Positions 3,738 through 32,536 of a stretch of 32,866 nucleotides of DNA are shown here, piece after piece; position 1 is the first letter of the stretch; every line of letters starts with the position of its first letter. Origin of the DNA: a virus; IMG/VR virus record IMGVR_UViG_3300025706_000016. One strand, written 5' to 3'. The notes beneath the pieces were generated by a model. The model was not told the DNA's origin. It saw only the letters and a list, made by a program, of their open reading frames with translations, and ran no database searches. Both the position numbers and the translations under genes were made by a program.

Positions 3738-4435
3738 CATTATTAGAGAATGTAGCCAAGTTTATAAGAGCCCTATGGAAAGAAGTAAAACTCTTAACAG
3801 GAGTAGCTCTTCCATATGATAAAGCAACGATTGAATCGATTATCACTTCACAACTTGAACCTATATTCGCTGAAATGTTTAGATTAGGAAGAGAAATAGA
3901 TTATGATATAGTAGATAAAAACATATCTAATCTGATTAAGAGGTATAATGTTCCTGTAAAATATGATAGGTATTTATTGGATAGAGTAAATGGTAAGAGT
4001 ATATTTAGTGGATATTTTGATGAAGCTTATTATGATTTATACAGCAAGAGTGAGATTGATAAAATCAAAAGGACTATATTAAGAGCCAAGTATAGTGATA
4101 TGAGCGAGAAAGAGTTGAGGACTATATTGAAAGCTGATTTTCGTATGACAGAGAAGAGAGCTCAGATTATAGCAAGAGGTGAGTTGCAGAGATTAGATAT
4201 AGCGGCAGCTGAAATATATTATGAACAACCTGAAGTAAAACAAGGATATGATTTAGTATGGCAAACAGCAGGTGATGATAAAGTTCGTCCTGCACATGCT
4301 GAGATGGATGGTAAGAAGGCAGATAAAGATGGTTATTTTGATTCACCTACATGGGGCAAAATAAGAGGACCATCTGATATTCCTTATCCACAGAATATAA
4401 ACTGTAGATGTAAGGTTATTTTTGTTAAAAGATAA
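3734..4435 (+). CDS. Head morphogenesis protein (SPP1 gp7 / Mu F-like)
   Basis: ATGA overlap with the portal stop. C-terminal VRPAHAEMDGK...NCRC is the Phage_Mu_F signature. Confidence 0.85.
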   Translation: MTLLENVAKFIRALWKEVKLLTGVALPYDKATIESIITSQLEPIFAEMFRLGREIDYDIVDKNISNLIKRYNVPVKYDRYLLDRVNGKSIFSGYFDEAYYDLYSKSEIDKIKRTILRAKYSDMSEKELRTILKADFRMTEKRAQIIARGELQRLDIAAAEIYYEQPEVKQGYDLVWQTAGDDKVRPAHAEMDGKKADKDGYFDSPTWGKIRGPSDIPYPQNINCRCKVIFVKR

Positions 4436-8457: not shown

Positions 8458-10200
8458 ATGGCTATTTCTTATGGAAGTGAATATGTATTTAATAGTGCTT
8501 CTACAAGTGTTCCCAGATCTGCTGCTATAGATTCAACTCATTTTGTAGTAGTTTATAGAGATGCTGGAAACTCTTATTATGGAGTTGCTATTATAGGAAC
8601 TGTTGCAACAGACGGTTCTATTACTTATGGAAGTGAGTATGTATTTAATAGTGCTTCTACAAATAATATTGATGTTACAGTTTTAGATTCAACACATATA
8701 GCTATTTCTTATATGGATATTGGAAACTCTAACTATGGAACTGCTATTATAGGAACTATATCAAATGATGATGAAATAAGCTTTGGAAGCGAATATGTTT
8801 ATCGAAGTGTTGAAACTACATTCAATAGAATATCAACCTTAAGTTCAACCAAGTTTGTTATTGCTTTTTTTGGACCACAATCTTATTCAAACTATGGTAA
8901 TGCTATTATAGGAACTGTTTCATCTGGTAATCAAATATCATATGGAACATTAAATGAGTTTTCAGGTGATGCCACAACAGCAGATATAAAATGTAAAACT
9001 TTATCATCTTCTAAGTTTGTGGTTTGTTATAGAAAACCATCTGGAACTACCTATGGCTATTGTCGTATAGGTTCTGTTTCATCTTCAACTATTACTTATG
9101 GAACTGAAGTTTCTATTATATCTGAAGATACGAGAATCTCAGATTTGAATGTTTTAGATTCTACACATTTTGCAGTTGCCTATTATAGACAAGCATCTAC
9201 TTCGACTGGTTATATTAAAATAGGTGTAGTTTCAGACACTACTATTACATTGGGTGATGCTTATTCATATTCTTCATCTATCAACTTTATTACTACTACA
9301 GCTACATTAAGTTCGACTGAGTTTGCTGTTCAATATGGTAGTTATGGTAAAACAAAAATAGGAACTATATCCAATGATGATGAAATAAGTTTTGGGAGTG
9401 AAAGCTCAGCAAGTATAAGCACGGTCTCTAAACCAAACATATGTGCTTTAGATTCAACACATGTTGTTCTTGTTTTTGAAGACACTGGAAACTCTAACTA
9501 TGGAACTGCAGTAGTTGGAGCAACTGAAATAATCCTAAGCTTTGCAGCAACAATCGATTATAGCTATGATATAACAGCAACAGTTTCTCCAGCTCTATCT
9601 CTCTCTTCTACTATAAACTATGATTATGATTTATTAGCTGATACTTCCCTTAATCTCAATATATCCTCTCCAATAGATTACAATATTGATTATATATCCC
9701 CTATAACTGGAACATCATCATTCTCTTCCACTATTGATTATGATTATTCTATATTTAGTTTATTGCAAAATATATTATTAAGTGATTTTGTTATAGATTA
9801 TGGTGTAGATTATTCGGCAGATATAGTTGGAGAAGGTTCTATATCGGCTGTTATAGATTATGATTATGATATTCTCTCCCCAGTAAATACACATTATTCA
9901 ATAGCTCCTGTTATAGATTATGATATTGATTATGTTATTACATCTGAAGGTTCAGCTGATTTAGATGCTATAGTAGATTATGATTATGATTGGGGTAGTT
10001 GGTATGATTATCCAGGAAGAATAAATCGTTCTTATAGTTTTATCAATAATAGAAATATATCTTATTCTATTGGAAATAAGCAAGATAATAGAAATAGTAA
10101 AGCACAAATAACATCTATTGGTTTTACTCCTACAGAAACAGAAAATATGGCAAATACTATTCCTACTCTTGAAAACAGCAAACAAAGTAGAGGTAAATAA
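8458..10200 (+). CDS. Repeat protein: predicted 7-bladed beta-propeller plus C-terminal 20-aa IDYDYD tandem repeats
   Basis: Seven ~50-aa repeats (I[ST][YF]GSEYVF.S....LDSTHF.V.Y.D.GNSNYGTAIIGT) span aa 1-355. Eight 20-aa repeats follow. Confidence 0.85.
   Translation: MAISYGSEYVFNSASTSVPRSAAIDSTHFVVVYRDAGNSYYGVAIIGTVATDGSITYGSEYVFNSASTNNIDVTVLDSTHIAISYMDIGNSNYGTAIIGTISNDDEISFGSEYVYRSVETTFNRISTLSSTKFVIAFFGPQSYSNYGNAIIGTVSSGNQISYGTLNEFSGDATTADIKCKTLSSSKFVVCYRKPSGTTYGYCRIGSVSSSTITYGTEVSIISEDTRISDLNVLDSTHFAVAYYRQASTSTGYIKIGVVSDTTITLGDAYSYSSSINFITTTATLSSTEFAVQYGSYGKTKIGTISNDDEISFGSESSASISTVSKPNICALDSTHVVLVFEDTGNSNYGTAVVGATEIILSFAATIDYSYDITATVSPALSLSSTINYDYDLLADTSLNLNISSPIDYNIDYISPITGTSSFSSTIDYDYSIFSLLQNILLSDFVIDYGVDYSADIVGEGSISAVIDYDYDILSPVNTHYSIAPVIDYDIDYVITSEGSADLDAIVDYDYDWGSWYDYPGRINRSYSFINNRNISYSIGNKQDNRNSKAQITSIGFTPTETENMANTIPTLENSKQSRGK
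9550..10010 (+). repeat. Coding tandem repeat, period 60 nt, about 7.7 copies
   Basis: Units start at 9550, 9610, 9670, 9730, 9790, 9850, 9910 and 9970. Each begins with the core (a/g)t(a/c)gattatgattatgat, encoding IDYDYD. Confidence 0.9.
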
Positions 10201-13383: not shown

Positions 13384-15981
13384 ATGATCGATTCAAATCT
13401 TGGAGAACTATTCTATAAACTTGTTTTAGACGAAAGTGACTTCAATAAATCAATAAACAAAGCAGAAGATCGTGTTGATCTATTCAATAAAAAACTTGAC
13501 CGTGTTGGTAAAGAACTAACCACTAAACTTACTCTTCCAATATTAGCAGCAGGAACAGCTGCTATTAAAATGGCTGCAGATGCAGAAGCTGCTGCTTCCA
13601 AGTTTGATAAAGCGTTTGCTGGTGCTGCTAAAGATGCACAAGCTGCAGTTAAAGCTTTAGGTGATAGTTATGGTTATTCAAATACAGAAGCAACAAAACT
13701 TCTTGCTAACACTGGAGATTTATTAAAAGGATTTAATGCAACATCTGATCAAGCATTAGAAATATCAACTCGTGTTCAAATGATGGCTAAAGATTTAGCT
13801 ATCTATAACAATGTTCAGGGTGGTGCTGCAGTAGCTTCTCAAAAGCTTACAAAAGCAATGTTAGGGGAAACTGAAGGATTAGTAGAGTTAGGTATTAAAC
13901 TATCTCAAGCAGATATACAACAAGAGTTAGTAAGAACTGGTCAGGATAAACTTACTGGTCAAGCTTTACTACTTGCAAAAGCTCAAGCTACATTAAATCT
14001 GGCATCACAACAATCAGTTGATGCTATGGGTGCTTATGCTCGTTCTGGTGGTAATGCAACTGTTATGATGGAAGAGTTTAAGAAAGAGATTGCTAACCTT
14101 GCAGTTGAATATGGTGAAGTTTTAATGCCTACTTTCAAAGCTCTATTAGGCGGATTGACTGATTTAGTTAAGGGTATGTCTGATGCTGGTCCTAATATGA
14201 AGGGCTTTGTTGTGACATTATTAGGAATAGCAGCTGGTGCAGGTCCTGCTATTAAAGGTATAAAAGGTATTTCTGTTGCAATAAAAGCATTGAATGCTTT
14301 AGCAAAGGGAAATCCTCTTGGTATTCTTGTAGCTGGTATAGTTGCCTTAGTGACAGCATATAATGGATTAAGAGCTGCTGCTGAAGACAGAGAAATAGAA
14401 AGAAAACAACTATGGTCTTTCATGCCTGGTATAGATTCAATAGAACAAGGCAAGAAGGATCTAAAAGAAATAACTGCTCTTACTCGTCAATATTTCAAAG
14501 AAAGAGATGCTCTCTCTAAGGGTAGTGCTGCATGGCAAGCTGCTGATTCTAAAGCTCAAGATGCTGCACAAAAAGTTAAACAATATGAAGCTGCTCTAAA
14601 TCTTGCTATACAACAAGAAAAAGTAATGGCTCAACTTCAAGAGGATAAAGAGAAAAAAGAACAAGCTGCAGTTGATTTAACAGAGGAATATAAGAAAGCT
14701 CGTGAAGATGTATTAAAAATACTTGAGGATGAAAAGAGTGAGTATGATAAAATACAAGAACAAATAGATGCTCTTTCCAAATATCCATGGGCTGGTGGTC
14801 AGTTAGAAGAAGAAAGATTAAAAGCAATCGAGATATTAAAAGCAAAACAAAAAGAACTAATAGACCAACAACTTGAAGATGAAAGAGATGCAGCCATTGA
14901 AAGAGCAGAAATAGAAGTTGCTACACTTGAAGCTATGCAAGCTGCTGAAGCTGCTTACTATGAAGAGCAAGCAAGATTAGCACAAGAAGCTCGTAATGAA
15001 AGAATGGGCAGTATTGATGATGTATTAAAACAATATTCTAACGCAGATGAGAGTGAGCTTGATAAACTTAAAGCAAAACTTGAAGATGTAATGGCTGTTG
15101 AAACAGAATGGTATGATGAAGTATTAGATAAAGAAAGAGCTATTGCTTTATTAAGAGAGCAGATAAATAAAGAAACAGAAAAAGCAGAGAAACAACAAGC
15201 TGAGGAAAGAAGAAAGAGATTCCAAGAAGAGTTTTCTTTTTATTCATCCCAAGCTCAGAATATAATGACTATATTCTCTTTAATGTCATCTTATCAATCT
15301 AATCTTGAACAAACAAGAATAAGTAATATTGAAGCTGAAACAGATGCTATGCTTACTAATCTTGATTTAAGATTAGCGGCTATCAAGCAACAAGCTGAAG
15401 CTGGTGAGATAACTCGTGAAGAAGAAGCTGAACATATTAAGGCATTAGAAAATGAGAAACTAAGAACTGAATATGAAGCAGAGTTAGCTAAATATGAAAT
15501 AGAAAAAGATGCATTTGAAAGAAAAAAGAAAATAGCCATAGCTGAAATAGCACTTAATACATCCATTGCAATCATCAAGGGATATGCAGAACTTGGTCCA
15601 ATAAAGGGAAGTATTGCAGCAATCTTATTAGCTGGTATTGCTGCTGGACAAATAGCCGTTGCTACATCTCAACAACCTCCACAACCTCCCATCCCTCCAA
15701 CTTATTTAGCTGATGGTGGTATAGTAACAGAACCAACTAATGCTATCATTGGAGAAGGTAGAGATGATGAAGCAGTCCTACCACTAAATGATATGACATT
15801 CAGAAAGTTAGGACAAGCTATTGTTGATAGTATGCAAGGTTCAGTAGTTGATAAAACTGGTCAAGAAATGAACTTGACTATTATATTAGAAGATTTAGGA
15901 CAAACAACACTGAAAGTAACACAAGATGCTCTTAACTCAGGAGTTATTCGTGTTCCATCAAGAGTTGTAGTAAGAGGATAA
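13384..15981 (+). CDS. Tail tape measure protein
   Basis: 865 aa. Ala-rich N-terminal domain, hydrophobic Gly/Ala segments, long coiled coil, and a C-terminal LADGGIVTEPT...GEGRDDEAVLPL motif. Confidence 0.9.
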   Translation: MIDSNLGELFYKLVLDESDFNKSINKAEDRVDLFNKKLDRVGKELTTKLTLPILAAGTAAIKMAADAEAAASKFDKAFAGAAKDAQAAVKALGDSYGYSNTEATKLLANTGDLLKGFNATSDQALEISTRVQMMAKDLAIYNNVQGGAAVASQKLTKAMLGETEGLVELGIKLSQADIQQELVRTGQDKLTGQALLLAKAQATLNLASQQSVDAMGAYARSGGNATVMMEEFKKEIANLAVEYGEVLMPTFKALLGGLTDLVKGMSDAGPNMKGFVVTLLGIAAGAGPAIKGIKGISVAIKALNALAKGNPLGILVAGIVALVTAYNGLRAAAEDREIERKQLWSFMPGIDSIEQGKKDLKEITALTRQYFKERDALSKGSAAWQAADSKAQDAAQKVKQYEAALNLAIQQEKVMAQLQEDKEKKEQAAVDLTEEYKKAREDVLKILEDEKSEYDKIQEQIDALSKYPWAGGQLEEERLKAIEILKAKQKELIDQQLEDERDAAIERAEIEVATLEAMQAAEAAYYEEQARLAQEARNERMGSIDDVLKQYSNADESELDKLKAKLEDVMAVETEWYDEVLDKERAIALLREQINKETEKAEKQQAEERRKRFQEEFSFYSSQAQNIMTIFSLMSSYQSNLEQTRISNIEAETDAMLTNLDLRLAAIKQQAEAGEITREEEAEHIKALENEKLRTEYEAELAKYEIEKDAFERKKKIAIAEIALNTSIAIIKGYAELGPIKGSIAAILLAGIAAGQIAVATSQQPPQPPIPPTYLADGGIVTEPTNAIIGEGRDDEAVLPLNDMTFRKLGQAIVDSMQGSVVDKTGQEMNLTIILEDLGQTTLKVTQDALNSGVIRVPSRVVVRG

Positions 15982-23834: not shown

Positions 23835-24221
23835 ATGAGCAAAACAAAGATGATGAAAAGGGCTGCCAAGTTTAGCAACTGTAAGCAGGAATATAAGTTC
23901 GATCCTGAATATAATGCCCACATCTACACTGTTTCCAAAACAAACGAAACTTATGCATTTTATTTTGGTTTTCACAATGGTGGGTTTTTCTGCTCTTTGA
24001 CTGGTGTAAAAAACAAGCTTTGTGTTCCTCATATAGATTTTGTTGATAACCCCATGGGATACAGCATTGAGAATCGCACTTTTGTAAATGAAAAAGAGTG
24101 GGTTATCAAGATTTCAAATCATTATATAACTTCAGACACTGCTTATGCTGATATTCTTTCTCTTGGTTCAGAGATTTTTAATCTCTGCCAGAAAGCTATG
24201 GAGGAAAAGCGTGGTAAGTAA
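23835..24221 (+). CDS. Hypothetical protein (128 aa)
   Basis: GGAGGG RBS. Confidence 0.65.
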   Translation: MSKTKMMKRAAKFSNCKQEYKFDPEYNAHIYTVSKTNETYAFYFGFHNGGFFCSLTGVKNKLCVPHIDFVDNPMGYSIENRTFVNEKEWVIKISNHYITSDTAYADILSLGSEIFNLCQKAMEEKRGK

Positions 24222-24594
24222 AGAAACTCGGGATGCTCGCAAGAAACAAACTGCTGAGTTTTTCACACCTCCTATACTTGTAAATAAAATGTTAGACAAG
24301 TTTAATCCTGATTCTTGGCAAGAAGAAAAGACATTCTGCGATCCATCTGCGGGCAATGGAAACTTTCTTGTAGAAGTGTATCGGCGGAAAGTAGAGGTGT
24401 ATAAGCACTCTCCTATAAAAGCACTTACAACCATCTATGGTGTGGAACTTATGCCTGATAATGTTCAAGAAATGAAAGATCGTCTTCTTGAGATGGCAAT
24501 AAGTTATGGTGTAAATAAAAATATTGCTATGATGATTTTGAATAAGAACATTGTCTGTCATGACGCTCTCACATATGATTTTACTTTTTCATAA
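24211..24594 (+). CDS. N-terminal (AdoMet-binding) half of a gamma-class N6-adenine DNA methyltransferase, lacking catalytic motif IV
   Basis: GGAGGA at 24200-24205 lies 5 nt before GTG 24211. Motif X-like AEFFTPP, motif I DPSAGNGNFL, motif II/III-like IYGVELMPDNV. The ORF stops after IVCHDALTYDFTFS, where NPPY would normally follow. Confidence 0.6.
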   Translation: MVSKETRDARKKQTAEFFTPPILVNKMLDKFNPDSWQEEKTFCDPSAGNGNFLVEVYRRKVEVYKHSPIKALTTIYGVELMPDNVQEMKDRLLEMAISYGVNKNIAMMILNKNIVCHDALTYDFTFS

Positions 24595-24625
24595 CTTTTT
24601 TATTAAAATACAAGCATATTTAATA

Positions 24626-24750
24626 GTGGAAGGGGGTGAGGCAAGGTAAGGAACGGAGGTGTAAGGCATGGATTGGCAGTCACGGAGTGTTAAGTTTTGG
24701 AGAGGAGCTGGTGCGGAGTGGCAGTCGTGGATGGGAAGGGCAGGTTTGGG
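24626..24750 (+). other. G-rich, GGA-dense tract (upstream element)
   Basis: Hand count over 125 nt: G 61, A 28, T 25, C 11. Ten GGA triplets between 24628 and 24736. Shares the heptamers GGAAGGG, GGTGAGG and GGTAAGG with 25409-25470. Confidence 0.5.
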
Positions 24751-24779
24751 TTCTAAAAATCTTATACAAGGAGTTATTT

Positions 24780-25370
24780 ATGGCTAAAGAAATCACATTA
24801 AAGACACTTGACATTCAACGGCTTAGTTTTAAGATTGTGGGTGATTCACCACTTATTATGAATCGTTTTGATGAAAAAGCAAAACGGGAAATGCTTGAAA
24901 AGCAACAGAAGAAGGCAAAGGGAGCCAAGGAAATCAGAGATCCAGAAGCAGAAGTGCAGAAATCCCTTTATTTTCTTCCAAATGACCAAGTAGCTTTCCC
25001 AGCAGATGCAGTCAAGCTTTCAATGATTCGTGGTGCAAAATCACTGGGCATGGTCATGTCAGATGCTCGTGGTGCTTTCTTTGTTGAAGGGATTTATTCA
25101 GAGAAAGATGGACGAGACCTCATTCCAGTTGAAGGCGTCGTTCAAGCCCGGGAAGATGTAGTTAAAATCGGAATGGGGACAAGCATGCTTCGTTATCGTG
25201 GTCAAGTAGCCAACTGGAGTATGACCATCAACATCCGTTTCAATGCTTCTGTGATTTCTGCTGAACAACTTGCATCCATGTTGTCTGCCGCAGGTTTTGG
25301 ATGTGGCATTGGTGAATGGAGACCAGAACGAGACGGATCATTCGGCATGTTCCACATTGACACCAACTGA
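24780..25370 (+). CDS. Hypothetical 196-aa protein with foreign codon usage; weak RAMP/Cas7-like motif resemblance
   Basis: AAGGAG lies 6 nt before ATG 24780. 11 of 13 Arg codons are CGN, against AGA in the structural genes. Motifs: FPADAVKLSMIRGA and the C-terminal Gly-rich GFGCGIGEWRPERDGSFGMF. Confidence 0.75.
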   Translation: MAKEITLKTLDIQRLSFKIVGDSPLIMNRFDEKAKREMLEKQQKKAKGAKEIRDPEAEVQKSLYFLPNDQVAFPADAVKLSMIRGAKSLGMVMSDARGAFFVEGIYSEKDGRDLIPVEGVVQAREDVVKIGMGTSMLRYRGQVANWSMTINIRFNASVISAEQLASMLSAAGFGCGIGEWRPERDGSFGMFHIDTN

Positions 25371-25375
25371 TTTAT

Positions 25376-25401
25376 ATGGGGGCTTTAAGCCCCCATGTTT
25401 T
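25376..25401 (+). terminator. Hairpin terminator
   Basis: atgggggc-tttaa-gcccccat followed by gtttt. 20 of 21 positions are identical to the capsid-gene terminator at 6002-6022. Confidence 0.75.
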
Positions 25402-25408
25402 ATGATAT

Positions 25409-25470
25409 GGTATGGAAGGGCGCGGGCGGGGAAAGGAGCGGAAGGGACGGGTAAGGTATGGCAGGTGAGG
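25409..25470 (+). other. G-rich, GGA-dense tract (downstream element) containing a G-quadruplex-type motif
   Basis: Hand count over 62 nt: G 35, A 15, T 6, C 6. Contains GGGcgcGGGcGGGGaaaggagcggaaGGGacGGG at 25418-25451. Confidence 0.5.
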
Positions 25471-25492
25471 AAAAAAACATTTAGGAGGTATT

Positions 25493-25960
25493 ATGATTTA
25501 TTCATGGGCAAAAGGAGCATCTTTTACTGCAGATGCAAATAAAGTAGGACAAGAACTTGAAGAGTTAGACAAAGTTTCTATTGATTCAGTTTTGAATAAA
25601 GCAAGAAATCCAAACACAGAGTTAAACAAGTGTTTCATTTGGGATGATTCAGAAGCAGCAGAGAAATATCGAAGACATCAGGCATCAATGTTGATTTCCA
25701 CTATCAAAGTAGAAATACAACCAGTCAATCCATCAACAGAACCTGTTGTTGTTCGTAGCTATGAAAGTATAAAGACCAACAATGATCGACACTTTGTTTT
25801 CACACCAAAAGCTATTTCAAAACCAGACGAAACTGCAATGATTCTTAGTCGGATTATGAGAGATATAAAATCTCTCGAAAAGAACCTTCAAGATTACAAA
25901 TCTATTCTAACGCCAGAAATCAAAGCAAGAGTAGAAAATCTTTTAGGATTCTTTTCCTAA
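25493..25960 (+). CDS. Hypothetical protein (155 aa)
   Basis: AGGAGG RBS. The FIWDDSEAAEKYRRHQASMLI motif looks like a conserved phage family that I cannot name. Confidence 0.7.
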   Translation: MIYSWAKGASFTADANKVGQELEELDKVSIDSVLNKARNPNTELNKCFIWDDSEAAEKYRRHQASMLISTIKVEIQPVNPSTEPVVVRSYESIKTNNDRHFVFTPKAISKPDETAMILSRIMRDIKSLEKNLQDYKSILTPEIKARVENLLGFFS

Positions 25961-25966
25961 TCTAAT

Positions 25967-25992
25967 AAAAACTCCTGAATAAGGAGTTTTTT
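25967..25992 (+). terminator. Rho-independent terminator closing the accessory island
   Basis: aaaaactcct-gaata-aggagttttt followed by a T tail. Confidence 0.8.
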
Positions 25993-26078
25993 ATTTATTT
26001 TTCAGCAAAATAATGCATACTTTATATAAGATAGTATTATTTTAATAAATGCAAAAAAAATAAAAAGTGAGGTAAAAA

Positions 26079-27690: not shown

Positions 27691-28983
27691 ATGAAAGAAC
27701 TTATACCTGTTTTACTATCACATCCGAACGATATCCCACCATTTATTGAAAATGATTTCTTTGACAAGGATATTGCTCGGAAACTTGGACTTGTCTATGA
27801 ACAATATAAGAAGACAAATAAGATTATATCATTAGATTTAGCAAAATCAGTATTTGATATAAATACATTAGAAACAAATGAGGCAGATTTAGAATATGCC
27901 TATCAACAACTTGAACAATGGAATGTTTTACAGTTTTTAAACAAAGCAGTAGATAAACAAGAAACATCATGGCAAGAAATAGAAACATTACAAAATAAAT
28001 ATAAAAAAACATATGGTGATAAAACTAAATCATCTACATCATTCAGCAGTTATGAAGACATTGATAAAATATATAAAGATTTTCAACAAACAACCATTGA
28101 TACTATATCAACAGGTTATCCATCATTTGATACTATGTTAAATGAACAAAAAGGATGGATGAGAAAAGGTTTATATTCTGTAATGGGATTAAGTGGATAT
28201 GGAAAATCTATATTTTTAACCAACTTCGCTCGTTCATCATTTCAAAATAATCAAAAGGTATTATACATATCAACAGAAATGACAGAACCTGAAATAAATG
28301 AAAGGTTCTTTAAAAGTCTTACTAATAAAACTACATTTCAAGAAGCATTTCTACATATTCAAAAATACAAACTTAAATATGAAGGTTCATTTCAGGTTAT
28401 TAAAATAGACCCATACGATGCTACTGTAAATGATATCCAAAACATTATCGATAAAGTTGAAGTAAAACCAGACATTTTGTACATTGACTATGCTGATGAA
28501 CTTTTACCTGATGTAAAAGTAAATAGTGAATATGATGCTCAAGGAAACGTTTATTCAAGATTAAAGAAGTTAGCAAATGAAAATAATATACCTGTTATAA
28601 CAGCAACACAGACAAATAGAACTGCCGAAGCAGAAAACGGTGGAACAAAGACATATGTTGGATTTGGAGCCATTGCTGATTCTTCAAAGAAAATAAGATT
28701 AGTAGATGGTTTATTTAGTATTATACAACAAAACGGAGATAGAGAAGAGAATAAAATCTATCTTCAAATAGTGAAAAATAGAAAATCAAAATCAGGTGAA
28801 ATGTTAGAGTTCAATATTGATTATTCTACTATGAGAATAAATGAATCAGGTATAGTTCCACTTAAAGACATTATTAAGAAAAATAGGGATTCAAAAATAC
28901 AAGAAAAGAAAAGCACATTAAACATGATGACAACTCCACAAGAGTTTGATGAAAGATTGAAAGATAAAAGAGGTAAAATATGA
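27691..28983 (+). CDS. DnaB-like replicative DNA helicase (RecA-fold C-terminal domain)
   Basis: Walker A GLSGYGKS, Walker B ILYIDYADEL, and ITATQTNR. 430 aa. Confidence 0.8.
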   Translation: MKELIPVLLSHPNDIPPFIENDFFDKDIARKLGLVYEQYKKTNKIISLDLAKSVFDINTLETNEADLEYAYQQLEQWNVLQFLNKAVDKQETSWQEIETLQNKYKKTYGDKTKSSTSFSSYEDIDKIYKDFQQTTIDTISTGYPSFDTMLNEQKGWMRKGLYSVMGLSGYGKSIFLTNFARSSFQNNQKVLYISTEMTEPEINERFFKSLTNKTTFQEAFLHIQKYKLKYEGSFQVIKIDPYDATVNDIQNIIDKVEVKPDILYIDYADELLPDVKVNSEYDAQGNVYSRLKKLANENNIPVITATQTNRTAEAENGGTKTYVGFGAIADSSKKIRLVDGLFSIIQQNGDREENKIYLQIVKNRKSKSGEMLEFNIDYSTMRINESGIVPLKDIIKKNRDSKIQEKKSTLNMMTTPQEFDERLKDKRGKI

Positions 28984-29312
28984 AGTTTAATAATAAAAAT
29001 AGAGGTTATAGCCAGTTATATTGGGTTATTGCTGATAAAATGAATCCTTATACTTTAAGTGTTTATTATCTTATTAAGAGTTATGCAGGGTTTAAGAGTT
29101 TTGGACTATCAATAAGACAAATAGCACAAAGATGTGGTATGAGTTTTGGAAAGGCACAAGAAAGTTTTAAGAAAATAAAAGAAATAGGACTTATAAAACT
29201 ATCTAAACAAACAAGTTATTTTGAAGCAGACGAATATGATGTTTGTGATGATGAACTTGCTATGCAACTTGACCCTGATGGAACATATAATAATAACAGG
29301 TTTATTGAATAA
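28980..29312 (+). CDS. Winged-helix DNA-binding protein; replication initiator or helicase-loader candidate
   Basis: ATGA overlap with the helicase stop. HTH-like LSIRQIAQRCGMSFGKAQESFKKIKEIGLI. Confidence 0.5.
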   Translation: MKFNNKNRGYSQLYWVIADKMNPYTLSVYYLIKSYAGFKSFGLSIRQIAQRCGMSFGKAQESFKKIKEIGLIKLSKQTSYFEADEYDVCDDELAMQLDPDGTYNNNRFIE

Positions 29313-29327
29313 CCTTCTCGTGCGCTT

Positions 29328-29361
29328 TTGTATTGATCATATGGTGATCTATAATAGATCA
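29328..29361 (+). promoter_or_regulatory. Promoter TTGTAT-N16-TATAAT overlapped by nested palindromes and three GATC sites at 11-bp spacing
   Basis: -35 at 29328-29333 and -10 at 29350-29355. GATC at 29335, 29346 and 29357. Inverted repeat GATCA-N5-TGATC at 29335-29349. Perfect palindrome TGATCT-ATAAT-AGATCA at 29345-29361. Confidence 0.55.
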
Positions 29362-29571
29362 TGGGATGATATACTTATATATAATAGCACGCTCTTTTAT
29401 GGAGCGTGCATATGAAAGAACTGGTTGCAGTTATTGCATGTAATAAGTGCATCGTTCTTAAATAAAGGGGCTTCTTTAGGAAGCCCTTTAAATAGTAAAG
29501 AGCTGAAGTTTCTGTTCAGAAGAGAGAAGATTAAATCACCCCGCCGGGGCATAGTTTATTAAGGAGAAAGC

Positions 29572-29883
29572 ATGAAAATAGATGAACAAGCAAAATCACT
29601 TCTTCAAGGTCAAAGCTGTAAAACTTGTAAAAATCTCTTTTGTCCAGAAAACGGATTTATGAGAATAAAAGGTGAAACAGAGTGGGGAACTATGCAAATC
29701 TGTCAAATAAATAAAACAGAAACTAAACTTGATGATTGGTGTGATAAGTGGTCAGGTCGTCTAAACGACGATGATATAAGAGAAGTAGCAAAACTTTTAA
29801 ATAGTCGTTGTAGTAATCAATCCCGGCTTGCAACAAGAATACTCTTACAAATCCTGATTGAAAAAGAGAGAGAGAAACTATGA
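29572..29883 (+). CDS. Small Cys-rich (zinc-ribbon-like) protein, paralog b
   Basis: AAGGAG RBS. EQAKSLLQGQSCKTC...DWCDKW. Confidence 0.65.
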   Translation: MKIDEQAKSLLQGQSCKTCKNLFCPENGFMRIKGETEWGTMQICQINKTETKLDDWCDKWSGRLNDDDIREVAKLLNSRCSNQSRLATRILLQILIEKEREKL

Positions 29884-29972
29884 AAATAGAAGAGAAAGCA
29901 AAATACTTATTAGAGGGTAAATCTTGTGATAACTGTTTCTATATGACTTTTTGTTCAAAAACATCTTCATAA
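29880..29972 (+). CDS. Truncated third copy of the Cys-rich family (30 aa); possibly a pseudogene
   Basis: ATGA overlap with paralog b. MKIEEKAKYLLEGKSCDNCFYMTFCSKTSS, then a stop. Confidence 0.35.
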   Translation: MKIEEKAKYLLEGKSCDNCFYMTFCSKTSS

Positions 29973-30003
29973 TGTTTGGAAAACAATAACTGATCAGGTT
30001 GAA

Positions 30004-30324
30004 GTGAAATACCCTTATTTGTCATCATTTGTAAAGTTTGGTCTTGATACATATATGATGAATATGATAACCTTTTACGAATTAAAAGAGTATTCTAATA
30101 AGGCTCATATCATAAGAGATAATTGGGATCTCTTCCAAGAGATATTAAAAGAAAACCCTTCAGAAGGTTATATGTTTGAGTGGTCCGAATTAGGTGTGGA
30201 TATATGGAAGATAAATACTGATCCTGATCAACCTGGTTTGAGAGTAGCAATAACACCAGCAGATAAAAGAAAAATGATAGATAAATATGTTTTTGAATTA
30301 AACAAAGAGTTAATGAATGAATAA
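30004..30324 (+). CDS. Hypothetical protein; start uncertain (GTG 30004 or a downstream ATG)
   Basis: The frame is open from 29947. The RBS before the GTG is weak. Confidence 0.5.
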   Translation: MKYPYLSSFVKFGLDTYMMNMITFYELKEYSNKAHIIRDNWDLFQEILKENPSEGYMFEWSELGVDIWKINTDPDQPGLRVAITPADKRKMIDKYVFELNKELMNE

Positions 30325-30336
30325 TAAAGGAGTAAT

Positions 30337-31086
30337 ATGATAAACATCAGAAACAGTTTGCAACAATTCAACCCCCTTGTCATAGAAGATAAGGGTCTAA
30401 TTATCACTGGTTATGATAACTTAGAGGTATTAAAGAGTATGCCAGATGGGTGTGTGGATAACATATATATTGATCCGCCATTCCTCACGAACAAGACCTG
30501 GGAGAAGAACGGTTGGACTTTCCACGACCACTTTGATAATATGTGGGAATATCTTTATTTTTTAGGTGAGCGTCTTGTAGAAGCAAAAAGAGTTATGAGA
30601 GAGAGTATAATAACTTACGATGGAACTAACTTTTATAGAGATGGACTGGTTATATCTTATCAACCTCTCATAAATAAACTAACTACTGACTGGCTTTCCT
30701 CTAAGCAGAAGACAAAAGAGGTAAGTAAAGGTAAAAAGTTAGGTGCTTCCATCTTTGTCCATATTGACTATAGAACAAATAACGAAGTAAAGACATACCT
30801 TATGGACCCTTTGTTTGGTGAAGGTGCAGGTGCTCTTACCTTAGATGATGTTCAAACCTTGATGCAAAGTAAAATAGGTAAGCAACTACATACTCCAGTA
30901 TCTGTGCCTAAAGTAGATATAACAGATGGACCTTGTATTTGTATGGACTTCTTCGGAGGGTCACATAGTTATGCTGCTGCTGCCTGGAAAACAGGTAGGA
31001 GGTTTATATCGATAGAGTTAAATAAGTCAGAAGAGTTATTCTACAAACAGATAGGTGATACCAAGTTTGGTGAGGATAGAGAGTAA
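30337..31086 (+). CDS. Beta-class N6/N4 DNA methyltransferase core: motif IV plus motif I, without the usual middle region
   Basis: AAGGAG RBS. VDNIYIDPPF (motif IV), ASIFVHIDYR, and ICMDFFGGSHSYAAAAWKTGRRFISIELN (motifs I-II). I see no hE.ilw..K or HPTxKP segment. Confidence 0.75.
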   Translation: MINIRNSLQQFNPLVIEDKGLIITGYDNLEVLKSMPDGCVDNIYIDPPFLTNKTWEKNGWTFHDHFDNMWEYLYFLGERLVEAKRVMRESIITYDGTNFYRDGLVISYQPLINKLTTDWLSSKQKTKEVSKGKKLGASIFVHIDYRTNNEVKTYLMDPLFGEGAGALTLDDVQTLMQSKIGKQLHTPVSVPKVDITDGPCICMDFFGGSHSYAAAAWKTGRRFISIELNKSEELFYKQIGDTKFGEDRE

Positions 31087-31087
31087 T

Positions 31088-31501
31088 ATGTTCATAGGAC
31101 AATTCATCTGGAAGAATATAAAAGGTATAGGGTTTATTAAAAACCCCAAGAGTTTTACAATAGCAAACCATAACTATGACATCATATTGTGGTATGGAAA
31201 CCAATTTGTTTATGAAGAAGCAAAGTTTGACTTTCCTAAACAAGATGAAAAAGGTAAATATAGAATAACTACTTCTGGTGGCTGGAAATATAAAGATAAA
31301 GAAAGGTTGATAAAAAGATATGGTGATAGGTTGGTTTATACTAAAGCAGGTGAAATAGCAGGTACTAAAATATATGAAGGTAATAAGAGTTATATAGGTA
31401 TTAGATGTTTATTAGATGACTTGGGTGGGAATAATAAGATATACCCAACAGCAAAGCCATATAAATTATTAAGGAGGATAATATCTTTATCAACCAAATA
31501 G
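31088..31501 (+). CDS. Stand-alone middle (TRD / PTxKP) module of a beta-class methyltransferase, variant 1
   Basis: ATG 31088 lies 1 nt after the stop of the previous ORF. FIWKN, NHNYDIILWYGN, and a C-terminal YPTAKPYKLLRRIISLST. Confidence 0.65.
   Translation: MFIGQFIWKNIKGIGFIKNPKSFTIANHNYDIILWYGNQFVYEEAKFDFPKQDEKGKYRITTSGGWKYKDKERLIKRYGDRLVYTKAGEIAGTKIYEGNKSYIGIRCLLDDLGGNNKIYPTAKPYKLLRRIISLSTK
31441..31476 (+). repeat. 36-nt direct repeat, copy 1 (34/36 identical to 31869-31904)
   Basis: atacccaacagcaaagccatataaattattaaggag. Confidence 0.85.
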
Positions 31502-31503
31502 CA

Positions 31504-31929
31504 GTGAAAACAAGAGCACCTTGGGCATATGCCACATATCAAAAAAGAGCAAATGAAACTTGGATGGTTATATTATTTTACTCTCTTATTGATAACTATA
31601 TTTATGAGGCATATCATAGTAAGCATATAAAAAGAGAAATAGTATATAACTTGGAGACATCAGTAAAGTTAGGCAACTGTCCAGGTCATAATAAGAGAGA
31701 GTATTTAGGTATAACTCCTAAAACAAGATGGGGTTTTGGTGATGAGAAGATGACACAATATATTAAAGAAGGTAAAATATATAAACAAGGTAATAAGTTA
31801 AAGTTCAAAAACACAAGATATGGTTTTATAGAAACTGACTTATGGGAGTATGCCTCATCTAAACAAGGATACCCAACAGCAAAACCATATAAATTATTAA
31901 AGAGAGTAATTCAACTTTCTACAGTATAA
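31504..31929 (+). CDS. Stand-alone middle (TRD / PTxKP) module of a beta-class methyltransferase, variant 2
   Basis: GTG 31504 lies 2 nt after the upstream stop and has no SD. The C-terminus is YPTAKPYKLLKRVIQLST, while the rest of the body differs from variant 1. Confidence 0.55.
   Translation: MKTRAPWAYATYQKRANETWMVILFYSLIDNYIYEAYHSKHIKREIVYNLETSVKLGNCPGHNKREYLGITPKTRWGFGDEKMTQYIKEGKIYKQGNKLKFKNTRYGFIETDLWEYASSKQGYPTAKPYKLLKRVIQLSTV
31869..31904 (+). repeat. 36-nt direct repeat, copy 2
   Basis: atacccaacagcaaaaccatataaattattaaagag. Confidence 0.85.
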
Positions 31930-31939
31930 AGGAGTGGAT

Positions 31940-32536
31940 ATGGGAAAGAGAGGTTGTGCCATACCTCTCTTTTTTTATGCATATTTATTACCAAATATGA
32001 AATATAAAACCGTTTATGCAGATCCACCTTGGACATACAACAAATCTACAAAAAAAGCAGATGTTAGTTTAGTTTATGATACTATGTCTCTAAAAGATAT
32101 TTTAGATATGAAAGATTGGATAAATGAAATAACAGAGCAAGATTGTGTATTATTTTTATGGACTACATCACCAAAACTACCAGAAGGTTTAGAAACATTA
32201 AAAGCTTGGGGTTTTCAATATAAAACTTCTATTATTTGGAATAAGATAAAACCATATCTTGGTTATTATGTAAATCCGATTCACGAAATATGTTTGATTG
32301 GTGGTAAGGGTAAATCAACACCAGAAATATCAATGAAAGAAAGAAATCAAATACCAAGCATTATCACAGAAAGAAAAACATCTCATAGTAAAAAACCAGA
32401 TAAGATGTATGAAATAATAGAAACGCTTTATCCAACATATCCAAGAGTAGAACTTTTTGCAAGAAACACAAGACCAGGTTGGGATAGTTGGAACCCAACT
32501 GAAGGACTATATTTAAAGGAGGACACAAATGTTTAA
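31940..32536 (+). CDS. MT-A70-family N6-adenine DNA methyltransferase
   Basis: AAGGAG lies 5 nt before ATG 31940. The alternative in-frame ATG 31997 has no SD. YADPPW catalytic motif, HSKKPD, and ELFARNTRPGWDSWN. Confidence 0.8.
   Translation: MGKRGCAIPLFFYAYLLPNMKYKTVYADPPWTYNKSTKKADVSLVYDTMSLKDILDMKDWINEITEQDCVLFLWTTSPKLPEGLETLKAWGFQYKTSIIWNKIKPYLGYYVNPIHEICLIGGKGKSTPEISMKERNQIPSIITERKTSHSKKPDKMYEIIETLYPTYPRVELFARNTRPGWDSWNPTEGLYLKEDTNV
31945..31977 (+). terminator. Terminator-like hairpin plus T-run lying inside the first codons of the MT-A70 ORF
   Basis: agagaggt-tgtgccat-acctctct followed by tttttt. Confidence 0.45.

What the first reader, a model, noticed from the sequence alone, without database searches (positions are those of the whole stretch)
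24626..25470. Two related G-rich, GGA-dense tracts bracket a foreign gene: candidate protein-titrating or structured RNA elements
In an AT-rich genome, 24626-24750 is 49% G and 9% C, and 25409-25470 is 56% G (hand counts). They contain 10 GGA triplets (24628-24736) and 7 (25414-25486). They share one word set: GGAAGGG (24628, 24734 / 25414, 25440), GGTGAGG (24635 / 25464), GGTAAGG (24645 / 25450) and GTAAGG[CT]ATGG..GCAG (24661-24679 / 25451-25464). Within the first tract, GGCAGTC and CGGAGTG each occur twice. With so few C residues the + strand RNA cannot pair internally, so the GGA motifs would be exposed. Arrays of exposed A/C-N-GGA motifs are the hallmark of CsrA/RsmA-sequestering RNAs. 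Other readings are Shine-Dalgarno mimics that titrate ribosomes, G-quadruplex elements, or recognition sites for the flanked protein. I know of no described phage element with this bracket arrangement.
Basis: partly seen in the sequence, partly recalled or inferred. Interest (0 to 1): 0.75.

Follow-up and report, generated by a model that had tools for sequence, protein, structure and literature searches.

The report
Phage VIPR locus: guide-RNA arrays
The two G-rich tracts are arrays of five-base GG-N-NN repeats that encode guide RNAs for the small Cas7-like protein between them, making this a new example of the recently described phage VIPR RNA-guided DNA-silencing system and not a CsrA sponge.

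Summary
The two tracts are the only stretches of the 32.9-kb window with G >= 26/60, and the only two with a strong 5-nt periodicity of G. They are not GGA arrays as such; they are tandem pentamers G-G-N-N-N. The 196-aa gene between them (24780-25370) is a homologue of the founding SUSP1 Vipr protein (profile E 1.3e-11 against PDB 36pp; BLASTP E 1e-11). Its model matches Cas7 (Csm3, type VII Cas7). It keeps the residues that hold the GG of each repeat in the SUSP1 structure. Period-5 G tracts lie beside homologues of this gene in 71/80 viral loci and 66/72 genome loci across many phyla. In those tracts G1, G2 and Y3 are conserved and N4/N5 are near random. This matches VIPR systems (bioRxiv 10.64898/2026.04.26.720920 and .720927): one Vipr protomer binds each pentamer, and the NN dinucleotides read double-stranded DNA with a 1-nt skip to silence rival mobile elements. 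Local peculiarities:
- Arrays lie on both sides of vipr.
- GGCA|G junctions give a "staggered" array.
- Position 3 is A in about 48% of units.
- There are two 1-nt insertions.
- The accessory gene is unlike SUSP1 vap1.

No convincing target was found. Verdict: new member of a known kind. The CsrA reading is rejected.

The parts
24580..24609 (+). Sigma-70-like promoter candidate (TTTACT-18-TAAAAT). It would start transcription about 10-20 nt upstream of the first array.
   Evidence: Consensus scan only, 9/12 matches. The number of such sites in the region is not above shuffles, so this is weak evidence.
24626..24753 (+). Upstream vrRNA array. Pentamer units parse into v1 24635-24679 (9 units, ends GGCAG), v2 24679-24724 (9 units plus one inserted T at 24709, ends GGCAG), v3 24724-24743 (4 units, ends GGCAG) and a 2-unit stub 24743-24752.
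   Evidence: Register parse. Period-5 G power peak. GGCA|G junctions as in relatives. 48.8% G, 8.8% C. No significant RNA structure.
24768..24773 (+). Shine-Dalgarno AAGGAG, 6 nt before the ATG of vipr.
   Evidence: Read from the sequence. Supports ATG 24780 as the start, not GTG 24636.
24780..25370 (+). vipr gene: 196-aa minimal RAMP/Cas7-like protein (phrog_4652).
   Evidence: Profile hit to PDB 36pp 'SUSP1 Vipr protein', E 1.3e-11, full length. BLASTP to SUSP1 gp039, E 1e-11. AF2 model pLDDT 86.7. Foldseek top hits are type VII Cas7, Csm3 and Cmr4. No Pfam or NCBIfam family.
25374..25403 (+). Intrinsic-terminator-like hairpin (11 bp, 6 G-C) plus T run, between vipr and the downstream array.
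   Evidence: A hairpin sits in the same place in relatives L008, L009, L003 and L034.
25409..25473 (+). Downstream vrRNA array: v5 25409-25464 (11 units plus one inserted base near 25424-25434, ends GGCAG) and a 2-unit stub 25464-25473.
   Evidence: Parse. Period-5 G power peak 25366-25505. 56.5% G. No significant RNA structure.
25493..25960 (+). Candidate vipr-accessory (vap-like) gene: 155 aa, phrog_15946.
   Evidence: Homologues sit next to vipr in L002, L003, L007, L009 (42% id) and Mycobacterium phage Brocalys gp46 (27% id). The profile finds 1796 homologues. Not similar to SUSP1 vap1. The AF2 model is confident (pLDDT 89.8) but has no significant PDB fold match. Absent from the 72%-identical locus L008/L035.

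Best explanation
This is a VIPR (Viral Interference Programmable Repeat) locus of an uncultivated tailed phage. The 196-aa protein is a Vipr, a minimal Cas7-like RAMP. The two G-rich tracts are vrRNA arrays transcribed on the gene's strand. Each vrRNA is a run of 5-nt units G1-G2-(Y/A)3-N4-N5. By homology to the solved SUSP1 system, one Vipr protomer binds each unit and sequesters GG(Y). The resulting helical filament presents the N4N5 dinucleotides. These pair with double-stranded DNA in the pattern NNxNNx (one skipped base, usually a codon wobble position) and silence transcription of a competing phage, satellite or prophage. In this clade the vrRNAs are 'staggered': each ends in GGCAG, and that last G is also the first G of the next vrRNA. 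Shown here: homology of the protein, the pentamer register, its conservation beside homologues, and hypervariable NN positions. Inferred from the preprints: RNP filament formation, DNA targeting, and a silencing or inter-phage role.
For: Protein:
- Profile A1 hits PDB 36pp_D 'SUSP1 Vipr protein' at E 1.3e-11 over residues 18-190.
- Pairwise BLASTP to SUSP1 gp039 gives E 1e-11.
- The G-loop GIGEWRPERDGSFG aligns to SUSP1 GVGDWRPR--FG.
- E179/W180/R181/R140/K44 are invariant or nearly invariant in 57 homologues. They align to SUSP1 D177/W178/R179/R138/K33, the residues that bind G1/G2/Y3 and the target backbone (10.64898/2026.04.26.720927).
- Foldseek places the model in Cas7 (Csm3, type VII Cas7; E 2e-6, prob 1.0).

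RNA:
- These are the only two period-5 G peaks in the window.
- The units parse as GGNNN.
- The same kind of tract lies on the gene's strand beside homologues in 71/80 IMG/VR loci and 66/72 GTDB loci. Only 5 and 9 period-5 clusters lay outside those distance limits within the fetched flanks. Loci include Mycobacterium phage Brocalys and Gordonia phage Pipp.
- 246 parsed guides have 7-17 units (mode 11), with G1 96%, G2 81%, Y3 92% and N4/N5 near uniform.
- GGCAG-to-GGCAG spacing is 4 mod 5 in 522/818 cases.
- Close relatives (77%, 72% and 69% identical proteins) keep arrays in the same places with unrelated NN content.
- L036 and L037 differ by one base at an N5 position.
- No self-target is found under the 1-nt-skip rule (best 14/18 and 16/22), as the preprint reports for other systems.
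- The tracts have no RNA structure above shuffles.
- There is no CRISPR array in the window.
Against: - No expression or binding data exist for this locus.
- The arrays are short and imperfect. There are two 1-nt insertions (T24709; one base near 25424-25434), one 4-unit vrRNA and two 2-unit stubs.
- Position 3 is A in 48% of units, whereas the SUSP1 pocket excludes purines.
- There is no SUSP1-like structured 3' tail or pseudoknot.
- SUSP1 H17 is N28 here.
- An intrinsic terminator lies 10 nt before the downstream array, and no promoter was detected for that array.
- No convincing natural target was found. Exact 1-nt-skip patterns gave chance-level hits in IMG/VR, no IMG/VR hit for v2 and none for v5 in metagenomes.
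- The accessory gene is not SUSP1 vap1.
Confidence: 0.9

Rival explanations
1. A decaying or only partly functional VIPR locus. The protein is intact, but the arrays in this phage are eroded remnants (short vrRNAs, 1-nt indels, relaxed position 3) that no longer guide anything.
For: There are two register-breaking insertions, a 4-unit segment and two 2-unit stubs. Relatives have 3-5 clean vrRNAs of 8-14 units. No target was found.
Against: G1 97% and G2 86% are as well kept as in relatives. GGCA|G junctions are intact. The locus is 100% identical in contigs from at least four samples. Relaxed position 3 is shared with the nearest relatives, so it looks like a clade trait and not decay. The best matches of v2 stay in register across its inserted T.
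Confidence: 0.12
2. CsrA/RsmA-titrating RNA, or a Shine-Dalgarno mimic that titrates ribosomes, made of exposed GGA motifs.
For: There are 17 GGA triplets in C-poor, apparently unstructured RNA.
Against: GGA is not the conserved unit. Across 246 guides position 3 is C/T in 92% and A in 8%. Actinophage arrays are (GGCNN)n. A strict 5-nt register with hypervariable NN is not a feature of Csr/Rsm sponges, which present GGA in hairpin loops (established knowledge). No hairpins are predicted. No Rfam CsrB/RsmY-type hit was found. The element co-occurs with a Cas7-like protein across phyla.
Confidence: 0.02
3. A DNA-level element: a G-quadruplex or R-loop-prone G-rich non-template strand acting as a replication origin, recombination hotspot or Chi-like array.
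For: The tracts are G-rich and C-poor on the transcribed sense strand, near replication genes (DnaB-like helicase 27691-28983; RNase HII and primase genes near relatives). (GGNNN)n could form two-tetrad G4s.
Against: This does not explain conserved GGY with random NN, the GGCA|G punctuation at 5k-1 spacing, or the obligate linkage to a RAMP protein whose homologue was shown to bind exactly such RNA.
Confidence: 0.03
4. The upstream tract is coding: an N-terminal extension of the protein from GTG 24636. The metagenome gene caller made this call (244-aa P0001).
For: An open frame runs from 24636 into the gene. P0001 was called this way.
Against: A 5-nt periodicity is incompatible with coding. 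Most listed homologues are 187-217 aa and align from the ATG. SD AAGGAG sits 6 nt before ATG 24780. In relatives the tract lies downstream of the gene or is out of frame. Similar over-calls exist in GenBank: the Brocalys gp45 extension and Pipp gp43.
Confidence: 0.01

Closest known systems
VIPR type II system of Escherichia phage SUSP1 (Vipr gp039 + vap1 + four vrRNAs); bioRxiv 10.64898/2026.04.26.720920 and 10.64898/2026.04.26.720927; PDB 36pp
   Same: The protein is homologous to this ~195-aa Vipr (E 1e-11) and has the same G-loop (D/E)-W-R-P motif and thumb arginine. The pentamer GG-Y-NN repeat RNA is encoded in the intergenic regions flanking vipr, on the same strand. vrRNAs lie both upstream and downstream of the protein genes. 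There are no cas genes and no CRISPR array. The host element is a phage.
   Different: Only 24% identity. There is no ~40-nt structured 3' tail or pseudoknot and no repeated leader before each vrRNA (compare). Instead the vrRNAs abut through GGCA|G with a 1-nt overlap. Position 3 is A in about half the units. H17 is replaced by N28. The downstream array lies between vipr and the accessory gene, not after it. The accessory gene is unrelated to vap1.
VIPR 'staggered vrRNA arrays' (fig. S18 of 10.64898/2026.04.26.720920)
   Same: The legend describes arrays in which individual vrRNAs derive from 1-nt overlapping positions, so the end of one marks the start of the next. That matches the GGCA|G junctions and 5k-1 spacing seen here and in 177 related loci.
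   Different: The figure and type tables are not available in the held text. I could not check whether the published staggered arrays use the GGCAG junction or which of types I-VII this locus belongs to. According to the text, the staggered architecture was not among those confirmed by sRNA-seq.
Class 1 CRISPR-Cas backbone proteins Cas7 / Csm3 / Cmr4 / type VII Cas7 bound to crRNA
   Same: The fold matches (RRM core, glycine-rich loop, thumb). Foldseek gives E 2e-6 to 1e-4, prob 1.0, TM about 0.5. The logic is also shared: a protein filament measures out the guide RNA in fixed steps.
   Different: The step is 5 nt with three bases sequestered, not 6 nt with one base flipped. There is no repeat-spacer array, no Cas5, Cas6, Cas10 or Cas11 and no adaptation genes. 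The guide information is discontinuous.
CsrB/RsmY/RsmZ-type CsrA sponges
   Same: Many GGA triplets in a non-coding transcript.
   Different: No hairpin-presented A(N)GGA, no Rfam match, a strict 5-nt register, and GGA not conserved in relatives. This is a resemblance of words only.

Membership tests
VIPR system | Vipr protein homologous to the founding Vipr family | tested here: met
   hmmsearch of profile A1 against PDB: 36pp_D 'SUSP1 Vipr protein', E 1.3e-11, near full length. BLASTP against SUSP1 gp039, E 1e-11, 24% id.
VIPR system | Minimal RAMP fold: single RRM core, glycine-rich loop, thumb | tested here: met
   AF2 model pLDDT 86.7, pTM 0.81. The top 50 Foldseek PDB hits are almost all Cas7-family chains of type III, VII and I complexes. 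G-loop G172-G189. Long beta-hairpin 118-155.
VIPR system | Residues that read G1, G2, Y3 and the target backbone in SUSP1 (H17, D177, W178, R179, R138, K33) | tested here: met
   Aligned positions are N28, E179, W180, R181, R140 and K44. Five of six are conserved in kind and invariant or >=90% conserved in 57 homologues. H17 is N in this protein; the family consensus is H.
VIPR system | Flanking non-coding tandem YNNGG / GGY-NN repeats (>=4 units; 9-16 per vrRNA) on the gene's strand | tested here: met
   Units parse as 9, 9(+1 nt), 4 and 11(+1 nt). G1 97%, G2 86%. These are the only period-5 G peaks in the window. Variant: position 3 is A in 48% of units, i.e. the NNNGG form that the preprint lists as an alternative.
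VIPR system | GG(Y) conserved and NN hypervariable among related loci | tested here: met
   246 guides from 76 loci: G .96, G .81, Y .92, N4/N5 near uniform. Arrays of 69-77%-identical relatives are not alignable in NN.
VIPR system | Minimal locus without cas genes or CRISPR array, mostly in phages | tested here: met
   The window is a tailed-phage genome segment (TerS, TerL, DnaB-like helicase). There are no CRISPR-like repeats. The checked neighbours on both sides and the genes at 27691-32536 show no cas domains.
VIPR system | Adjacent vap accessory gene with predicted DNA-interaction function | tested here: inconclusive
   The 155-aa neighbour is syntenic with vipr in distant phages and belongs to a large family. 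It is not similar to SUSP1 vap1. It has no family annotation and no significant fold match; only weak winged-helix repressors at E>1.
VIPR system | vrRNAs expressed, processed and co-purifying with Vipr | not testable with these tools
   Needs sRNA-seq and pull-down.
VIPR system | Natural DNA targets under the 1-nt-skip rule (>=80% NN match), none in the own genome | tested here: inconclusive
   No self-target. v2 matches an in-frame site of rival vipr genes at 16/18 and 15/18 (permutation p about 0.01), but this was not significant in an independent set. v1 and v5 give chance-level or no exact hits. Only exact-match scans of the big collections were possible.
VIPR type II (SUSP1-like architecture) | Each vrRNA capped by a conserved ~40-nt structured 3' tail (pseudoknot) | tested here: not met
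   vrRNAs abut at GGCA|G with no spacer. The tracts fold no better than shuffles. The SUSP1 tails are visible for comparison.
CsrA/RsmA-sequestering sRNA | Multiple A(N)GGA motifs presented in hairpin loops, conserved as GGA among homologues | tested here: not met
   No structure above shuffles. No Rfam hit. Position 3 is C/T in 92% of units in relatives.
CRISPR-Cas class 1 effector | Repeat-spacer array plus Cas5/Cas6/large subunit partners | tested here: not met
   No such repeats. The checked neighbours on both sides and the genes at 27691-32536 have no cas domains.

The most novel reading that the evidence does not exclude
This sub-clade (the window, L034, L035/L008, L036) may represent a mechanistically distinct VIPR variant. 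Its features: vrRNAs are cut or measured at a GGCA|G junction with no structured tail; the position-3 pocket accepts adenine (GGH rather than GGY); single-base bulges in the guide are tolerated without shifting the target register; and at least one guide (v2, 24679-24724) is aimed at a conserved in-frame motif (T-V-K-F-N-A-A-V-I) of rival phages' own vipr genes, i.e. VIPR-against-VIPR warfare.
Probability: 0.2. Interest if true: 0.5.

Novelty: new member of a known kind. Interest (0 to 1): 0.3.

Why it matters
VIPR is a very recently described, still unreviewed class of RNA-guided DNA-binding systems, proposed to be ancestral to CRISPR RAMPs. This locus adds a low-GC, uncultivated-phage example. 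The analysis also makes three wider points:
- A simple period-5 G signal finds the arrays with few false positives.
- The GGCA|G staggered architecture predominates in a large, phylum-spanning clade. Spacing is 5k-1 in 64% of junction pairs, and guides have a mode of 11 units.
- Public annotations often mistake the arrays for coding sequence (metagenome P0001, Brocalys gp45 N-terminus, Pipp gp43).

For a genome scan, the practical lesson is that 'G-rich, C-poor tracts next to a small orphan gene' in phages should be checked for pentamer register before RNA sponges are invoked.

Tried and rejected
- Rfam at gathering and permissive thresholds over the window and six related loci: nothing but tRNAs elsewhere.
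- megablast and blastn of the region against 50,697 phage records: no match.
- Before the literature hit I considered a TRAP-like (NAG-NN)n binding site, a potexvirus-style 5-nt assembly origin, switch-region-like R-loop or origin elements, Chi arrays and telomere-like repeats. I dropped them once the protein proved to be a Vipr homologue.
- Host assignment failed. A close-relative scan of GTDB genomes found nothing. The profile scan found only <=47%-identical prophage copies scattered over many phyla.
- Looking for natural variants of this exact locus, to see NN turnover, failed. All four contigs carrying the 155-aa protein match the window at 100% wherever they overlap it; two of them span the whole locus.
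- Target searches:
  - The v1 18-base pattern gave 3 IMG/VR hits in unrelated genes: a primase-helicase in frame, a tail-like ORF out of frame, and a small ORF. This is about the chance expectation.
  - The v5 16-base suffix gave 16 hits; none extends upstream.
  - The v2 exact pattern gave 0 hits.
  - Both v5 22-base parses gave 0 hits in JGI metagenomes.
- The vap-like protein got no functional assignment from Pfam, PHROGs, NCBIfam, PDB sequence search or Foldseek.
- I could not assign a VIPR type (I-VII), because the preprint's figures and supplementary tables are not held.
Full report
**1. The observation**

The two tracts exist as described. 24626-24750 is 48.8% G and 8.8% C. 25409-25470 is 56.5% G. 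The window overall is 19.1% G and 14.7% C. All the shared words and the GGA counts (10 and 7) are at the stated coordinates. They are the only stretches of the 32,866-base window with at least 26 G in 60 nt; the median is 11 and the 99th percentile is 19. The gene between them runs from ATG 24780 to 25370 (196 aa). It is preceded by AAGGAG and followed by an 11-bp hairpin terminator at 25374-25398.

**2. What organises the tracts**

Homologues of the 196-aa protein were fetched from IMG/VR. L002 carries a roughly 360-nt G/T-rich tract just upstream of its homologue. L003 and L004 carry one just downstream. All of these tracts have a 5-nt register.

I computed the Fourier power of the G indicator at period 5 in 100-nt windows. 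In every locus the only strong peak lies next to the homologue, on its strand. In the window the only two peaks are 24636-24740 and 25366-25505. The same holds for Mycobacterium phage Brocalys, where the array is (GGCNN)n upstream of gp45, and for Gordonia phage Pipp, where it lies downstream of gp42.

On larger samples, 71 of 80 IMG/VR loci and 66 of 72 GTDB genome loci have such a tract within 700 nt upstream or 1500 nt downstream. Most of the IMG/VR misses, and two of the six GTDB misses, are contigs that end shortly after the gene. Only 5 and 9 period-5 clusters lay outside those distance limits.

**3. The protein**

There is no Pfam or NCBIfam family; the PHROGs hit is phrog_4652, function unknown. 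An AlphaFold2 model from 57 homologues is confident (pLDDT 86.7, pTM 0.81). Its best PDB matches are Cas7-family backbone subunits: type VII Cas7, Csm3 and Cmr4 (E 2e-6 and up, probability 1.0, TM about 0.5).

A profile of the family hits one PDB sequence significantly. This is 36pp, 'SUSP1 Vipr protein', at E 1.3e-11 over almost the whole length. Pairwise BLASTP to SUSP1 gp039 gives E 1e-11 at 24% identity.

**4. The literature**

[quoted passage not shown] Its structural companion is 10.64898/2026.04.26.720927. They describe the following:
- VIPR systems are phage-encoded.
- A system comprises a roughly 20-kDa Vipr RAMP, a vap accessory gene, and vrRNAs of 9-16 YNNGG repeats.
- The vrRNAs are encoded in the long intergenic regions flanking vipr.
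- One protomer binds each repeat and sequesters GGY.
- The NN dinucleotides pair with dsDNA under a 1-nt-skip rule (NNxNNx, with x usually a wobble base).
- The complex represses transcription of competing phages, satellites or prophages.
- Seven types exist. Variant repeats (NNNGG, YNNNG, NNNNG) and variant array architectures are reported, including 'staggered arrays' whose vrRNAs overlap by 1 nt.

In SUSP1, G1 is read by H17 and D177, G2 by R138 and W178, Y3 by R179 and others, and the target backbone by K33. In the alignment these correspond to N28, E179, R140, W180, R181 and K44 of the window protein. All but N28 are invariant or at least 90% conserved in the 57-sequence alignment.

**5. 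Anatomy of the arrays here**

A register parse gives these units for the upstream tract:
- GGTGA GGCAA GGTAA GGAAC GGAGG TGTAA GGCAT GGATT GGCA|G (v1, 24635-24679)
- GTCAC GGAGT GTTAA GTTTT GGAGA GGAGC(T) GGTGC GGAGT GGCA|G (v2, 24679-24724)
- GTCGT GGATG GGAAG GGCA|G (v3, 24724-24743)
- a 2-unit stub

The downstream tract parses as:
- GGTAT GGAAG GGCGC(G) GGCGG GGAAA GGAGC GGAAG GGACG GGTAA GGTAT GGCA|G (v5, 25409-25464)
- a 2-unit stub

The GGCA|G junction is general in this clade. Splitting relatives' arrays there gives segments of 5k-1 nt, for example 64, 64, 69, 69 in L004; 54, 64, 64, 69 in L002; and 39, 54, 64 in the 77%-identical L034. Over 177 loci, GGCAG-to-GGCAG spacing is 4 mod 5 in 522 of 818 cases, and the commonest spacings are 54, 49, 59 and 44. 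This is the behaviour the preprint's fig. S18 legend calls staggered.

246 guides parsed this way have 7-17 units (mode 11). Their composition is G .96, G .81, C/T .92, and near-uniform N4 and N5.

The window and its nearest relatives differ in one respect. Position 3 is A in 48% and 40% of units respectively, against 8% in the wider clade.

The tract RNAs fold no better than shuffles. This fits an RNA held extended by a protein filament. It also shows there is no SUSP1-type structured tail.

**6. Surroundings**

The window is a tailed-phage genome segment. It contains TerS 683-1165, TerL 1110-2372, structural genes, a DnaB-like helicase 27691-28983 and several DNA methyltransferases.

The 155-aa gene after the downstream array (25493-25960, phrog_15946) is syntenic with vipr in distant phages. 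It appears in L002, L003, L007, L009 (42% identity) and Brocalys gp46, and it belongs to a family of about 1800 detectable members. It is the obvious vap candidate. However:
- It is unrelated to SUSP1 vap1.
- It has no annotation.
- Its confident model has no significant PDB neighbour.
- The 72%-identical locus L008/L035 lacks it.

The usual gene order in the clade is vipr-vap-array. Arrays directly bracketing vipr, as here, recur in L008/L035 and L034.

**7. Targets**

Under the 1-nt-skip rule there is no self-target in the window, as expected. The results for each guide were:
- **v1.** Exact-match scan of IMG/VR: three hits in unrelated genes, about the chance expectation.
- **v5.** The 16-base part gave sixteen IMG/VR hits that do not extend. 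Both full parses gave nothing in JGI metagenomes.
- **v2.** Nothing in IMG/VR.
- **v2, one lead.** Among all fetched loci, v2's three best matches (16/18, 15/18, 15/18) and several 14/18 matches fall on the same in-frame site of other phages' vipr genes. The site encodes T-V-K-F-N-A-A-V-I, with the skipped bases at wobble positions, and the register is kept across the inserted T24709. Only 1% of permuted guides reach 16/18. In an independent set of GTDB loci the best hit is again that site, but at 15/18, which 27% of permutations reach. The invariant Asn codon also excludes a perfect match. [quoted passage not shown] It is not a finding.

**8. Verdict**

The finding is a real, conserved, functional-looking element, but it belongs to a kind already described in 2026: a VIPR locus. 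The CsrA-sponge, SD-mimic, G-quadruplex and N-terminal-extension readings are rejected or strongly disfavoured.

What is new is membership: a low-GC uncultivated phage seen in several metagenomes. The clade-level details are also new as far as I can tell. These are the GGCA|G staggered junctions, relaxed position 3, bracket layout and a different accessory gene. I cannot tell whether the preprint's inaccessible figures and tables already cover them.

Noticed in passing
window 24636-25370; L012 (Mycobacterium phage Brocalys NC_031262) 2839-3000; L013 (Gordonia phage Pipp MN234179) 3587-3856: Gene callers and GenBank annotations translate vrRNA arrays as protein. The metagenome call P0001 is a 244-aa ORF from GTG 24636. 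Brocalys gp45 carries an N-terminal extension that begins inside the array. Pipp gp43 ('hypothetical protein', 89 aa) lies entirely on the (GGCNN)n array.
   Followed up: partly
window 24679-24724 (guide v2) vs L072/L089/L050 position 2915, L127 2915: The NN code of v2 best matches one in-frame site (T-V-K-F-N-A-A-V-I) of other phages' vipr genes at 15-16 of 18 positions. This could be VIPR-against-VIPR targeting. It is significant in one set (p about 0.01) but not in an independent set (p about 0.27).
   Followed up: yes
L036 3104-3325 vs L037 672-895: Two contigs encoding an identical Vipr protein (P0008) carry arrays that differ by a single base, at an N5 (guide) position: GGAGA vs GGAGG.
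   Followed up: no
L009 5377-7034 (and L010): The VIPR locus of a 63%-identical relative is followed by an RNase HII gene and a Gad1 (anti-Gabija) gene, and is preceded by PTH2 and a sigma-70 gene. This looks like an accessory or counter-defence neighbourhood.
   Followed up: no
window 24145-24594, 30337-31086, 31055-31501, 31934-32536: The window has several DNA methyltransferase genes or fragments. There is a 149-aa N6_Mtase fragment immediately upstream of the VIPR locus. Two overlapping ORFs each match different parts of N6_N4_Mtase, which may be a split or frameshifted gene. There is also an MT-A70 methylase.
   Followed up: partly
window 15635-15721: This is the only markedly C-rich stretch of the window. 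It lies inside the 865-aa ORF 13384-15981 and encodes a proline-rich linker (QQPPQPPIPPT). It is ordinary coding sequence.
   Followed up: yes
window 9789-9990 and 8462-8662: Direct repeats with 60-nt spacing (three copies) and 156-nt spacing lie inside ORF 8458-10200. They are in-frame repeats of a structural protein, not a CRISPR-like array.
   Followed up: partly
window 24000-26000 vs L118, L119 (full 2 kb), L120, L121 (overlapping part only): Contigs from four independent samples (ENA ERZ761563, SRA SRR4244739, ENA ERZ795054, JGI 3300009776) match the window at 100% wherever they overlap it. L118 and L119 cover the whole VIPR region. L120 and L121 begin just upstream of the 155-aa gene and include none or almost none of the downstream array. 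Related VIPR phages (L035, L011) come from one of the same samples (ERZ761563).
   Followed up: partly
window 25374-25409: A strong terminator-like hairpin sits 10 nt upstream of the downstream array, and no promoter was detected for that array. A hairpin occupies the same position in L003, L008, L009 and L034. How the downstream array is transcribed is unexplained; possibilities are read-through, processing or an unrecognised promoter.
   Followed up: no
L002 2930-2960: A short (TTTTAA)5 tandem repeat lies between the end of the vrRNA array and the ribosome-binding site of vipr.
   Followed up: no
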